A stretch of DNA of 39,792 nucleotides from a virus. Taxonomy: Duplodnaviria; Heunggongvirae; Uroviricota; Caudoviricetes. The stretch is from positions 1 through 39,792 of the IMG/VR virus record IMGVR_UViG_2703718791_000008; one strand, 5' to 3'. Position numbers: made by a program. Positions 35,458 to 39,792 of the stretch are shown piece by piece (positions within the stretch are counted from its first letter, which is position 1; every line of letters begins with the position of its first letter).

Positions 35458-38400
35458 TGACACGAAATAAACGTCCGACAAGCACAGCAGCCAATACCTA
35501 AAAACAATATTTTGCCGAATATTCAGTTCGTTATAAAGGTTAAGCATTGAGTATACCAACTGTCTCTCTATGGAATGAGATGGGGTTAATCCCCCCAATA
35601 GACGAGGCTGATCCTACAAGCCATACTCGTTCCCCATACAAAATGGATATAGTACGCTTTGTTAGTACTTTTTCGCTTAGCCCTGCAAGGATTAAAATCC
35701 TTAAGGGTTTTCTTAACTTTCGTGTTTCACTCACTCAAGCAGGGCTAGTTGAAGGTTTTCAGTGGGTAGATGGAAGCTTCACAGAACATATTGAACTTAT
35801 TGAAAAAAGGCCACCGAATGATGTCGATGTTGTGACCTTTTTTCAATTCAGTAATGGCGATAATGATGCAATCGTAATCGGTAGAAAGCCAGAGCTATTT
35901 GATCATGATTTTGTTAAGAAGGAGTTTTTCGTAGATTCCTACTTCCAAGAACTTAATCTACCAAGTCATGAGCTTGTTGAAATGACTGTATACTGGTACA
36001 GTATGTGGGCACATAGACGCGATCTGTCGTGGAAGGGATTTATCCAAATCCCGTTAAACCCACAACTTGATGTTGTGGCAATGACTATACTTAATTCGGC
36101 TACTACTGAGGGGGTCAAACAATGAATCGTAATGATTATGTTTTCGCTCTCAGTGAGCGCGAGCAAATAAGTAATCTATTAAAAAATATGCCAACAAGTC
36201 ATTCTATTAGCCGAAAAAGCTTAGAAGACCGTCTGGAGAAAGTTGAGCGATTAATTTCACAAGCTGACGTTCGAGAACATGAACCTACGCATGCTGTGTT
36301 AACTTTTAGAGGCCCAACAGTAGTTGGCACGCATGGCATTTCAGCAGTATTTGGAACAAAAGCTATATCTTGTTTTAATGATGCAATAGCTTACTTGGCA
36401 ACCTCTTTCAATGGCCCACTTCCTGCATCAGGCAAGATACCAAACATAGAAAATAATCATCTCATGATTACCGCGTCAGCCCGTGGTTCTTTCGGATTTG
36501 TACTTGAAGAGTTTAGACCTGATGCTCCTCTTGAATTCGATGAAGAAACCCCAGTAGCAAAAGCTATTAATAAGGCCAGAAAAATATTTCAGGCAAGCTT
36601 GGATAATGATGATGAAGAATTGTCTGATGCTATAGAAAACTTAGACTCTCGGGCCTTAGATAAAATCAGAGCATTCATTCATTATCTGCATGAAAATAAA
36701 ACAGTTTTTACACTTAAAAGCCAAGGTTTTAGCATCGTTTTTAGAGAGCCAAAACAGCTTGAAGCTGTATATCAACATCTCAGCAATGATAACATTCAGC
36801 AGGAAAAAATTATTGAGAACGTTATATTTTTGGGAACTCTTCCTAACAAGCGCCAATGTGAATTTATAGTTTTAGGTAACACTGATATCAGAACCGCTAG
36901 CATTGACAAAGCTGTAGATGACCCAGATATTATAAACAAGCACTTAGGAAGCGTTGCAACAGCCACGTTCCTGAAAAAAACTGTTGGTAAGGGCAAGCCC
37001 AGATACACTCTGGTTTCTCGACCTCAATGGGATATTAAATCAATCGATTAGAATGAGCCCCTTCAGCCCGGCCACCGCGCCGGGTTTTTACTGCCTGTCG
37101 CTCCCCACAAGCGAAGAAGCCGAACGCATCTCTTCAATACTGAAGGTTTACGTTCGGCCTCAATAATGCAAAAGCATTCAGCATAATGTCCAACTCCCCA
37201 GTCCGACATTGATGCTGTTTAACCAGAGCCTCCAAAAGGAAGCCCTTGTTAAGGTACACAATATTTGCGATGTAACCTTAGCGCGTCTGGTACATTTTTT
37301 CAAGCGGTTGTAGGGCTGCCGCTAATATGAGAAAACACAGATGTCTACATACAATTTGAATGGCCAATTCGATCGAGAAGTTCATGTGAATGCCTATGAA
37401 CGGATAAGGCATGGAAATCTTGAACATGTGTGTGAGCATTATCGCTCAAGGCCACATCGCTGATAATCAAATCTCAACCCGGCCTCAGCGCCGGGTTTTC
37501 TTTGCCTCACGCTCCCCCTCACCCAAGAACACATAACCAATTGTATTTATTTGAAAATTAATAGATACAACTCACTAAACATAGCAATTCAGATCTCTCG
37601 ATCACCTTCCCAATCCACACAACCATGCAAAAAATAAATCTATATAAAAAACATACAGATAACCATCTGCGGTGATAAATTATCTCTGGCGGTGTTGACA
37701 TGCATACCACTAGCGGTGATACTAAACACATCAGCAGGACGCTGGTAGCCAAACGGAACAGATTGGCAGGCACTTTAACATTGATGGGATTGTCCCGCCG
37801 AAATGCGGGAACCAAAGAGTAGTTGGCTTTGGGGTGACGTGAAGTGCAGCTGCACGACGGCAACCGGAAGATAAGCACCCGGCGCGTCACCGCCAAAGTC
37901 AATCATCGGAGGTCAACATGACAGTAGTCATTACATATCTGGCTGACGATAACGCCAGAAATCGCCGCAGAGCACGCAGACAGGCTCAACGTGAACAGGA
38001 AATGCAAGAGCAGCGACTGGCGCGAAAAATTGCGCTAAAGCTCTCTGGTTGCGTCAGAGCAGATAAAGCAGCATCACTCGGAAGCCTTCGCTGCAAGAAG
38101 GCAGAAGAAGTCGAGCGTAAACAGAACCGTATTTACTACCGCAAGCCACGCAGTGAAATGGGTGTGACTTGTGTTGGTCGCCAGAAAATGAAATTAGGCA
38201 GCAAACCACTTATTTGAGGTGATATATGACAATATCATGGAGCGTACCTTTTCCTGAATCAGAAACTGAACATGATGGAATGCCTGTTTTCTGGAGATTC
38301 CAGGCGACAGTTGAAGAAGATGGAATCAAAATATTCGCACTTCAATATATAGCTTTTCATCAGACAGAGCATTATGCATGGTTGGTTCCTGCGCATTGGA

Positions 38401-39792
38401 TTGTTAATTTTAAACCAGCACCAAATCAGTGGTTACAGGAATGGAAACAAAAGAGAAATAGATATGCAATTAAGAAAGTAGCAAAAAATGCAGAAAGATC
38501 TTTTGCATTCCCAACGAAGAAACTTGCCATTGAAAGTTTATTGCGCCGGAAGAAATACCATTTAATGAGAATCAAACAAGATTTGGCTGTTGTATCAACT
38601 CTTGTTGATGGGATGAAGAATATTGATACATCAACACCAGATATTGAATATAACTTTGGACACAACCAAGAAACAGAAAATTGGGTATTTTATTAGTACA
38701 AATAAGCACTGTGTATTCATTCCAACGAGTGAATACACGGAGCAATGTCGCTCGTAACTAAACAGGAGCCGACTTGTTCTGATTATTGGAAATCTTCTTT
38801 GCCCTCCAGTGTGAGGGCTTTTTTATATGCATACCAATAACGCTTCACTCGAGGCGTTTTCGTTATGCAATCAAATATAAGGAGTTACCCATGATGCACT
38901 TTCAGCTCGCGGGTAGCGGCGTCATGTCCGCTTTCTACCCGCACGAATCTGAATTATCACGCCGAGTTAAACAATTAATCAGAGCAGCAAAGAAACAACT
39001 GGAGGCGTTATGCGCAATGAAATAGCCATCAATCACCAGATGCTCCGTGCAGCACAAAACAAAGCAGTAATAGCCAGATTTATTGGTGATTCAAAAATGT
39101 GGCTTGAAGCAAATAAAGCGATGAAATCGGCTATCAACCTTCCGTGGTATCGCAGGAAATGAGTTTTACAGATAACTGGTCAGACGAAGAATTCATTCGT
39201 CAGATGAAAGATTTAATCGGTAACGAAGGAGATATTCATGTCACTTGCAACCACAGTGAAGGAGAGCAAGTTACAGAGACGCATGTACACGCAGAAAGCT
39301 CTCTGGTATCGCCATAATGGCGACCGCGAAGGAATGCGGGTATGCCTTAATTTGTCCCGAGTCGAAGTATTAAATCAGCGTTATTTTCTTGGGCCATGTC
39401 CATTCTGAGGTGAATTATGGATTTGAACAAATTCGATGAGCCATTCAGCCCTGAAGATATCGAATGGCGAATACAGCAAAGCGGTAAAACACGCGATGGA
39501 AAGGTGTGGGCTATGGTGCTGGCTTATGTCACGAACAGGGCAATCATGAAACGCCTGGATGATGTTTGCGGCAAAGCAGGATGGCGCAATGAATACCGCG
39601 ATATTCCCAACAACGGCGGCGTTGAATGCGGCATATCAATAAAGATTGATTCCGAATGGGTAACCAAATGGGATGCTGCTGAAAACACGCAGGTAGAAGC
39701 CGTCAAAGGTGGTTGTTCCGGTGCAATGACGCGCGCTGCCGTTCAGAGGGGAATCGGTCGGTATCTGTATAACCTTGCGGAAGGTTTCGCAC

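What the first reader, a model, noticed from the sequence alone, without database searches (positions are those of the whole stretch)
38226..38696. Unknown 156-aa gene at the ral/sieB position downstream of N
Directly after N (8-nt gap, strong SD) and before a tL1-like terminator there is an AT-rich ORF with no recognisable motif. In lambda this early-left slot encodes restriction-alleviation and superinfection-exclusion functions, so it is a second candidate accessory or defence gene, expressed early after induction.
Basis: inference. Interest (0 to 1): 0.5.

Follow-up and report, generated by a model that had tools for sequence, protein, structure and literature searches.

The report
Uncharacterised immediate-early lambdoid phage gene
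The open reading frame is a real, strongly conserved phage gene (the same gene as HK97 gp45 and 933W L0079) that sits in the variable slot after the antiterminator N, encodes a small soluble protein with no solved-structure relative and no known function, and looks more like a factor the phage uses during lytic growth than a defence gene that protects the lysogen.

Summary
Observation confirmed. Window 38226-38696 (+) is a 156-aa gene, 8 nt after the N stop codon, with a GAGGTGA ribosome-binding site overlapping that stop. It is AT-rich (35.7% GC) and under purifying selection.

It is 98-99% identical to HK97 gp45, 933W L0079 and an unannotated H-19B ORF (phrog_1636, unknown function). It occurs in 598 of 5426 complete E. 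coli genomes and is always annotated as hypothetical.

It fills the slot between the N 3' end and a conserved 120-nt hairpin-plus-terminator element. That element is also in lambda, after ral, and is annotated tL2A in HK620, so it is not a tL1 homologue. Lambda carries sieB, orf28 and ral in this slot.

The protein has no membrane segment, no promoter of its own and an orientation that follows pL. It co-occurs with ral in phage phi367. A defence or Ral-like role is therefore not supported.

Best guess, at moderate confidence: an early lytic-phase binding protein for host takeover or counter-defence. The function remains untested.

The parts
37476..37497 (+). Intrinsic-terminator-like hairpin (8-bp stem, 6 G-C pairs, followed by a T-rich tail) that ends the cI / rex-position operon upstream of pL
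   Evidence: Terminator scan. 933W annotates a tM terminator at the equivalent place.
37660..37723 (+). Lambda-type OL operators and the pL promoter: -35 TTGACA at 37695-37700 and -10 GATACT at 37718-37723
   Evidence: Best promoter match in the region, 10 of 12. The operator-like 17-mers TAACCATCTGCGGTGATA, TTATCTCTGGCGGTGTTG and TACCACTAGCGGTGATA were read directly. Their identification as lambda OL3, OL2 and OL1 rests on my knowledge of lambda operators.
37918..38217 (+). N-type antiterminator gene (99 aa)
   Evidence: phrog_271 'anti-termination protein N-like' E 6e-37. Pfam N_peptide E 5e-4, below the curated cut-off.
38216..38222 (+). Shine-Dalgarno sequence GAGGTGA, overlapping the N stop codon and 3 nt before the ATG
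   Evidence: Sequence. The junction TTATTTGAGGTGA(G/T)ATATG is conserved in all 84 related loci, whatever lies further upstream.
38226..38696 (+). The 156-aa gene: HK97 gp45 / 933W L0079 family, phrog_1636
   Evidence: Structure model with pLDDT 94.
38709..38740 (+). Perfect 14-bp hairpin with a 4-nt loop. It is the first part of the conserved 120-nt lambdoid element that forms the right boundary of the variable slot.
   Evidence: RNA fold, z = -5.9 for 38690-38870. Invariant across loci. Present in 325 phage records, including lambda 34046-33924.
38801..38824 (+). Intrinsic terminator (GCCCTC-CAGTGT-GAGGGC plus T6). It is the first terminator met by pL transcripts here and the homologue of HK620 / lambda tL2A.
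   Evidence: HK97 annotates a 'putative terminator' at this place. HK620 labels the matching hairpin tL2A.
38839..38858 (+). Second terminator-like hairpin, at the position HK620 annotates as tL2B
   Evidence: Position relative to tL2A in HK620.

Best explanation
This is a real, mobile accessory cassette of lambdoid phages. It is the same gene as HK97 gp45 and 933W L0079.

It encodes an 18.6-kDa soluble protein that appears to be non-enzymatic. The protein has an acidic three-stranded beta-sheet at the N-terminus, a strongly basic conserved core (residues 61-131, including a 33-residue helix) and an acidic aromatic C-terminal tail.

Expression, inferred from sequence signals:
- It is transcribed from pL together with N. 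No terminator lies between pL and the tL2a homologue at 38801, so it should belong to the N-independent immediate-early transcript.
- It is probably translationally coupled to N, because its ribosome-binding site overlaps the N stop codon.
- It should be silent in the repressed prophage.

Most likely mechanism (inferred): during infection or induction the protein binds a polyanionic target stoichiometrically, through the conserved basic surface of its long helix and sheet. That target would be nucleic acid or a host protein that handles nucleic acid. The effect would favour the phage, as host takeover or counter-defence, rather than protect the lysogen.

Shown here: the gene is real; it is conserved and behaves as a cassette; its position and flanking signals; the protein's composition; the lack of any family, defence-system or solved-structure match; and the spread of its family through early operons of many phages.

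Inferred only: the expression pattern, the binding, and the target.
For: - Gene reality and purifying selection.
- Identity with HK97 gp45, 933W L0079 and the H-19B ORF.
- Cassette behaviour: the ORF is at least 97% identical in 84 loci. The 700 nt upstream fall into 36 sequence clusters and the 900 nt downstream into 25.
- Slot boundaries are the N 3' end and a 120-nt element shared by 325 phages, including lambda.
- Other phages carry other genes in this slot: lambda has sieB, orf28 and ral; HK620 has hkaQ and hkaP; Sakai Sp5 has an 83-aa gene.
- Expression signals: pL with lambda-like operators, no + strand terminator before 38801, no other + strand consensus-like promoter downstream of pL (the only other + strand matches lie at 37327, upstream of the cI-operon terminator, and at 39165, beyond the ORF), and a strong terminator closing the cI operon.
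- Protein properties: GRAVY -0.53 and no transmembrane stretch. The core 61-131 has 18 Lys/Arg (segment pI 10.4-10.7), flanked by acidic ends (pI 4.8 and 4.1). There are no cysteines.
- The conserved positions are largely basic or aromatic: R79, K84, K87, R91, R107, K109, R115, plus K87 and A101 across the distant family.
- Family spread: 87 representatives at E<1e-3, all unnamed, matching phrog_1636, 13631, 25384 and 28215.
- Relatives lie in early operons: after a cro-like HTH gene and before pRha; between recombination genes and integrase; or in arrays of small early genes. A DNA methylase lies within 3 kb in 3 loci.
- Structural relatives occur in phages of Erwinia, Achromobacter, Delftia, Cellulophaga and Rhizobium.
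Against: - There are no experimental data of any kind. I found no paper on this gene.
- It shows no similarity to any known anti-defence, regulator or DNA-binding family.
- The binding target is a guess from charge distribution alone.
- The expression pattern rests on consensus scans, which miss weak promoters and were not enriched over shuffles.
- The gene is absent from lambda, HK620 and Sakai Sp5, so any role is dispensable or host-specific.
- The nearby methylases are circumstantial. Such early regions hold many unrelated genes.
Confidence: 0.42

Rival explanations
1. A regulator or DNA-metabolism accessory that acts on the phage itself. It would modulate early transcription or antitermination, recombination, replication or the lysis-lysogeny choice, like cIII or the exo-xis region genes. 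It would not act on host defences.
For: - The basic conserved helix and the sheet are compatible with nucleic-acid binding.
- It is coupled to N here.
- In Vibrio phage PvVp04 the relative directly follows a cro-like HTH gene and precedes pRha.
- In Pectobacterium and Brenneria prophages it sits immediately upstream of xis-int.
- In other prophages it lies among recombination and SSB genes.
Against: - It is a swappable cassette paired with many different N, cI and recombination modules, which argues against a partner-specific regulatory role.
- It is missing from lambda, HK620 and Sp5.
- It has no HTH or other known DNA-binding motif.
- Relatives occur in phages that I believe to be virulent, which have no lysogeny decision to make.
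Confidence: 0.3
2. One reading: a prophage-encoded defence or superinfection-exclusion gene, analogous to SieB, that protects the lysogen against other phages.
For: - It occupies the same slot as lambda sieB and the HK620 putative sie gene hkaP.
- It is AT-rich and moron-like in composition.
- It is frequent in E. coli prophages: 598 of 5426 genomes, up to 4 copies per genome.
Against: - There is no significant PADLOC hit.
- The protein is soluble with no transmembrane stretch, unlike annotated SieB.
- The scan found no promoter of its own. It lies downstream of the repressor-controlled pL, and the cI operon ends at a terminator.
- It reads in the pL direction, whereas sieB and hkaP are annotated on the opposite strand.
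- It co-exists with hkaP-type genes in O26 prophages.
- Family members occur in non-temperate-looking phages.
Confidence: 0.1
3. A functional analogue of Ral: it alleviates type I restriction or enhances modification for the incoming, unmodified genome.
For: - It lies in the same slot as lambda ral and would be made very early.
- None of 80 loci carrying this gene, nor the window, has a lambda-type ral within 4 kb.
Against: - Phage phi367 carries ral and this gene side by side, so the two are not redundant alternatives.
- The family profile does not match Ral or any other lambda ORF from gam to cI.
- The sizes differ: 156 aa against 66 aa.
Confidence: 0.07
4. Not a functional gene: a chance or decaying open frame.
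For: It has never been given a function and is annotated as hypothetical everywhere. H-19B and several Stx phage records leave it unannotated.
Against: - P(no stop) is 3e-6.
- The length is fully conserved at 55-98% identity across genera.
- dN/dS is well below 1.
- A strong ribosome-binding site is present.
- The family alignment supports a confident fold, with pLDDT 94.
Confidence: 0.01

Closest known systems
HK97 gp45 (NP_037731), 933W L0079 (AAD25424) and the unannotated ORF between N and gene 17 of H-19B; PHROG family phrog_1636
   Same: It is the same gene: 98-99% identical, the same 156-aa length and the same place after N, followed by the same terminator element.
   Different: Nothing of substance differs. 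The flanking N, immunity and downstream genes vary from phage to phage. None of these entries has a known function.
Lambda Ral (restriction alleviation)
   Same: Both occupy the variable slot between N and the conserved tL2a element, lie in the early pL operon, are small soluble proteins and are dispensable accessory genes.
   Different: There is no sequence similarity. The sizes are 156 and 66 aa. Both genes are present in phage phi367. From my knowledge of lambda, tL1 lies between N and ral, so ral depends on N; here no terminator precedes the gene.
Lambda / P22 SieB and HK620 HkaP (superinfection exclusion)
   Same: They occupy the same slot immediately after N.
   Different: Those genes are annotated on the strand opposite to pL. 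Annotated lambda SieB has a hydrophobic segment (Kyte-Doolittle 1.73), whereas this protein does not (0.56). There is no similarity. This gene co-occurs with an HkaP-type gene in O26 prophages.
Tudor / SH3-like small beta-barrel adaptor domains (PWWP, MBT, PipX, the PcrA/UvrD C-terminal domain, KOW)
T7 Ocr (gene 0.3) and other first-expressed anti-restriction proteins
   Same: The shared logic is a small non-enzymatic protein made from the very first transcript. This is an inference from position.
   Different: From my knowledge, Ocr is a highly acidic DNA mimic. This protein has pI 8.8 and a basic core. No structural match was found.

Membership tests
phrog_1636 / HK97 gp45 family | Full-length match to the family profile | tested here: met
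   E 3e-111, residues 1-156 matched to profile positions 1-156 of 156. 98% protein identity to HK97 gp45.
phrog_1636 / HK97 gp45 family | Location in an early operon of a temperate phage, co-oriented with it | tested here: met
   After N in the window, HK97, 933W and H-19B. Upstream of xis-int in Pectobacterium and Brenneria.
Ral (restriction alleviation) | Sequence similarity to lambda / P22 Ral (about 66 aa) | tested here: not met
   The family profile against the six-frame translation of lambda 32500-38200 gave no hit. Ral is a separate neighbouring gene in phi367.
Ral (restriction alleviation) | Alleviates type I restriction or enhances modification | not testable with these tools
   This needs plating assays on EcoKI and EcoBI hosts.
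SieB-type superinfection exclusion | Sequence similarity to SieB or HkaP | tested here: not met
   No profile hit in lambda or HK620.
SieB-type superinfection exclusion | Hydrophobic, membrane-associated protein | tested here: not met
   The maximum Kyte-Doolittle 19-residue average is 0.56, against 1.73 for annotated lambda SieB. GRAVY is -0.53.
SieB-type superinfection exclusion | Expressed in the lysogen from its own promoter | tested here: inconclusive
   No consensus-like promoter lies between pL and the ATG, and a terminator closes the cI operon. However, the scan is crude and misses weak promoters. RNA data are needed.
Known anti-phage defence systems (PADLOC-DB 2.0) | Match to any defence-protein model | tested here: not met
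   The only hit is a chance-level Cas1_II match: E 0.0097, 13 bits, 46 residues.
   The hairpin at 38801-38824 matches the element HK620 annotates as tL2A, and lambda 33924-34046, downstream of ral. Functionally it is still the first terminator after pL in this phage.

The most novel reading that the evidence does not exclude
The gene is the E. coli representative of a widespread, wholly uncharacterised family of phage early proteins with a fold not yet seen in solved structures. In this reading it is made from the very first pL transcript and neutralises a host defence system, or hijacks a host nucleic-acid machine, by a mechanism unrelated to Ral, Ocr, Gam or other known inhibitors. That would make 933W L0079 and HK97 gp45 a new class of counter-defence factor, carried by about a tenth of sequenced E. 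coli strains and by many Shiga-toxin phages.
Probability: 0.25. Interest if true: 0.7.

Novelty: new member of a known kind. Interest (0 to 1): 0.38.

Why it matters
The gene is carried by reference phages (HK97, 933W, H-19B), by many Shiga-toxin phages and by 11% of complete E. coli genomes, yet nothing is known about what it does. By sequence signals it should be, with N, one of only two proteins made before antitermination. That timing fits functions needed in the first minutes of infection or induction.

It now has three things that make it tractable. There is a confident predicted structure with no solved relative. There is a defined family of about 85 sequence clusters across phages of many hosts. 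And the cassette boundaries are clean. Deletions in HK97 or 933W, and expression clones, are straightforward to build.

If it proved to be a counter-defence or host-takeover factor, that would bear on the host range and induction biology of Stx phages. If it has no phenotype, it is simply one more mosaic filler gene.

Tried and rejected
- **Family libraries.** Pfam, NCBIfam and PADLOC scans of the protein gave only chance-level hits: Tmem26, zf-H2C2 and Cas1_II. A Pfam scan of 58 family members gave nothing consistent. All matching PHROGs are 'unknown function'.
- **Solved structures by sequence.** The PDB sequence-profile search had a best E-value of 0.22, to twinfilin. I treat this as noise.
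- **AP2 / integrase arm-binding lead.** I tested the idea that the 'RFAF-T-K-E-E-A' strand-helix motif is an AP2 or integrase arm-binding type DNA-binding domain. hhalign against a Brenneria integrase carrying Arm-DNA-bind_1 gave probability 0.1, so I dropped it.
- **Domain fusions.** The two long 'fusion' hits, P0062 and P0080, are repetitive or low-complexity false positives.
- **Neighbour annotation.** Pfam scans of neighbouring genes in distant loci gave nothing recurrent apart from a cro-like HTH gene, pRha and DUFs.
- **Mutual exclusivity with ral.** None of the 81 sampled loci had ral. Phage phi367 carries both genes, which undermines the idea.
- **Known small RNAs.** I asked whether the conserved 3' element is a known prophage small RNA. 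There is no Rfam hit. The AgvB/AsxR and Pas sRNAs map to the late region near Q and the lysis genes, not here.
- **Literature.** Searches for L0079, HK97 gp45, phrog_1636 and NP_037731 found nothing relevant.
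Full report
**1. The observation**

The ORF listing gives a 156-aa ORF at 38226-38696 on the + strand, with an ATG start and a TAG stop. The upstream ORF, 37918-38217, is an N-type antiterminator (phrog_271 E 6e-37; Pfam N_peptide weak). Its TGA stop is at 38215-38217, so the gap is 8 nt. GAGGTGA at 38216-38222 overlaps that stop codon.

The ORF has 35.7% GC, against 49% for N and 45.7% for the whole window. At this composition a 156-codon open frame has probability 3e-6. Only 1 of 2000 shuffles of the local 600 nt produced one.

**2. It is a real and widespread gene**

- The DNA is 98.9-99.2% identical to an unannotated stretch of H-19B, to 933W L0079 ('hypothetical protein') and to about 80 phage records, mostly Stx phages.
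- In HK97 the same gene is Gp45, between N and a 'putative terminator', followed by cIII, kil and erf. In 933W it lies between N and the ea10-like ssb gene.
- It is present in 598 of 5426 complete E. coli genomes, with up to four copies per genome, and is always annotated 'hypothetical protein'. Cluster members carry only the names 'hypothetical' or 'Prophage protein'.
- Full-length homologues at 55-85% identity occur in Salmonella, Cronobacter, Pectobacterium, Brenneria, Rosenbergiella and metagenomes. There are 40 invariant positions.
- dN/dS is 0.08-0.18 between close copies. Against Pectobacterium and Brenneria, dS is saturated while dN is 0.2-0.35.

**3. Anatomy of the locus**

Upstream elements:
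- Upstream lies a lambda-like immunity region with a cI-like gene at 34747-35460.
- It is followed by two genes at the rex position and a strong terminator hairpin at 37476-37497.
- Then come three lambda-type operator sequences and the best promoter match in the region, TTGACA-17-GATACT at 37695-37723. I identify this as pL from my knowledge of lambda.
- No + strand terminator-like site lies between this promoter and 38801, and the scan found no second consensus-like promoter before the ATG.

Downstream elements:
- After the stop codon the RNA folds into a perfect 14-bp hairpin (38709-38740).
- Next is an intrinsic terminator (38801-38818 plus a U6 run), and then a second hairpin (38839-38858).
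- The z-score for 38690-38870 is -5.9.
- A cIII-type ORF (38891-39025) and kil (39010-39162) follow. They have the same lengths as in HK97.

**4. Cassette boundaries, and a correction to the terminator label**

Across 84 loci the ORF is at least 97% identical. The 700 nt upstream fall into 36 sequence clusters and the 900 nt downstream into 25.

Similarity to the window persists on the left only through the last codons of N and the ribosome-binding site. The junction TTATTTGAGGTGA(G/T)ATATG is conserved. On the right, similarity persists for about 115 nt, up to the terminator stem.

That right-hand element is not specific to this gene. It occurs in 325 phage records, including lambda at 34046-33924, between ral and ea10. 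HK620's curated annotation calls the matching hairpin tL2A and the next one tL2B. HK620's tL1 lies further upstream.

So the 'tL1-like terminator' is the tL2a homologue. It is nevertheless the first terminator after pL in this phage. From this I infer that N and this gene together form the N-independent immediate-early transcript.

The slot between the N stop and this element holds different cargo in different phages:
- sieB, orf28 and ral in lambda;
- hkaQ and hkaP in HK620;
- an 83-aa gene in Sakai Sp5;
- hkaQ, hkaP, this gene and a gp17-like gene in an O26 prophage;
- two small ORFs, ral and this gene in phi367;
- this gene alone in the window, HK97 and 933W.

**5. The protein**

It is 18.6 kDa with pI 8.8 and GRAVY -0.53. 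It has no cysteine and seven tryptophans. The N-terminal 60 residues are acidic (pI 4.8). Residues 61-131 carry 18 Lys/Arg; the two segments 61-95 and 96-131 have pI 10.7 and 10.4. The last 25 residues are acidic and aromatic, with the conserved tail FGHNxETExWxF. There is no transmembrane-like stretch: the maximum Kyte-Doolittle 19-residue score is 0.56, against 1.73 for annotated lambda SieB.

There is no significant hit in Pfam, NCBIfam or PADLOC, and none to PDB sequences even with a profile.

An exhaustive profile search of 1.84 billion representatives found 87 proteins at E<1e-3. Apart from fragments and two repetitive false positives, these are 130-165-aa proteins about 20% identical to the query. 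All match only PHROGs of unknown function, namely 1636, 13631, 25384 and 28215. None has a name. The shared core is roughly YR..E.G...(H)ET...KR..K..K...RFAF.TKeeA...L..RK..QL.HL.R.

**6. Structure**

With close homologues only, AlphaFold was unconvincing (pLDDT 64). With the 58-sequence distant alignment it gave pLDDT 94 and pTM 0.80.

The model has three long antiparallel strands (19-30, 33-46, 50-55), two short helices, a short strand (83-86), a 33-residue helix (98-130) and an ordered tail.

**7. Genomic contexts of relatives**

- In Pectobacterium and Brenneria prophages the gene lies directly upstream of xis-int, at the far end of the early-left operon.
- In a Vibrio phage it follows a 65-aa cro-like HTH gene with a 2-nt gap and precedes pRha and YopX.
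- In other prophages it lies between the YqaJ, RNase_T and SSB genes, or small ORFs, and an integrase, with a DNA methylase within 3 kb.
- In Pantoea phage LIET2 and Klebsiella phage phi_KPN_H2 it lies in long arrays of small hypothetical early genes. In LIET2 it is two genes downstream of a cytosine methyltransferase.

No recurrent partner gene emerged.

**8. Interpretation**

A lysogen-protecting defence role is not supported, for six reasons:
- There is no defence-model hit.
- The protein is soluble.
- The gene reads in the pL direction, unlike the annotated sieB and hkaP.
- The scan found no promoter of its own, and the cI operon is closed by a terminator.
- It coexists with sie-like genes.
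- Relatives occur outside lambdoid prophages.

A Ral-equivalent role is also unsupported. The family profile finds nothing in lambda from gam to cI, and ral sits next to this gene in phi367.

What remains is an early, dispensable, swappable and apparently non-enzymatic protein whose conserved surface is strongly basic. I take the most likely mechanism to be stoichiometric binding of nucleic acid, or of a host factor that handles nucleic acid, during the first minutes of lytic development. That would be host takeover or counter-defence (confidence about 0.4).

The main rival is a phage-internal regulatory or DNA-metabolism accessory (about 0.3). The cassette's free combination with many N, cI and recombination modules argues somewhat against that rival. 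These are inferences; nothing here tests function.

**9. Novelty and score**

The sequence itself is long known as a hypothetical ORF of reference phages. No paper in the searchable library deals with it. It is best filed as one more member of the known kind 'lambdoid early-left accessory cassette'. It belongs to a dark protein family with a confidently predicted fold that has no solved relative.

That makes it a reasonable target for experiment, not a surprise in itself. My interest score is 0.38.

Noticed in passing
window 35547-37051 (+), with terminator at 37476-37497: There is a two-gene operon at the rexA/rexB position, downstream of the cI-like gene. The first gene (192 aa) is DUF6932 (Pfam E 2e-26) with a weak PADLOC PDC-M63A match (E 2e-10). 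It overlaps a 309-aa gene (phrog_18731, unknown function). This is a better candidate for a lysogen-expressed defence module than the gene under study.
   Followed up: partly
window 38706-38826 (+); lambda 34046-33924: A 120-nt element, made of an invariant 14-bp hairpin, a linker and the tL2a terminator, is conserved at 95-99% in 325 phage records, whatever gene precedes it. The hairpin shows no variation at all, so covariation cannot be assessed. It has no Rfam match. Its architecture (5' hairpin, A/U-rich linker, intrinsic terminator) resembles a 3'-end-derived small RNA or a processing site, but I know of no assigned function.
   Followed up: partly
L010 (about 3000-3060), L066 and L089 (just after the ORF); lambda 34080-34040: In some prophages the cassette is flanked on both sides by pieces of the lambda sequence GGCCTTTATTTTTGGCATAAA(T/C)AACAGAATAAACACTGCACTG. 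In L010-type loci the motif GCACTG is present at both junctions, and in L066 a copy of this lambda sequence follows the ORF. This suggests the cassette moves by recombination at these short linker sequences.
   Followed up: no
L100 (Sakai Sp5, 4721-4972), L102 (HK620, 498-1385), L099 (phi367, 2878-3435): The slot after N is filled by unrelated, mostly uncharacterised genes in other phages: ECs_1180 (83 aa), hkaQ and hkaP, or two small ORFs plus ral. It is a hotspot of accessory cargo that would merit a systematic census.
   Followed up: partly
window 37558-37902 (-): A 114-aa TTG-initiated ORF on the minus strand overlaps pL, the operators and the N leader. It is almost certainly spurious. I did not test it further.
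   Followed up: no
protein cluster 2 (P0137): A partial member of the Salmonella-phage-type cluster is labelled Staphylococcus aureus (HEG7246648.1, 46-kb contig). This is probably contamination or a mislabelled assembly rather than a real Gram-positive occurrence.
   Followed up: no
L094 (E. coli 2013C-4974, 4501-4971): A copy of the ORF 100% identical to the window's lies in a different prophage background, with a 933W-like stk kinase operon and different recombination genes. This shows recent exchange of the cassette between prophages.
   Followed up: no
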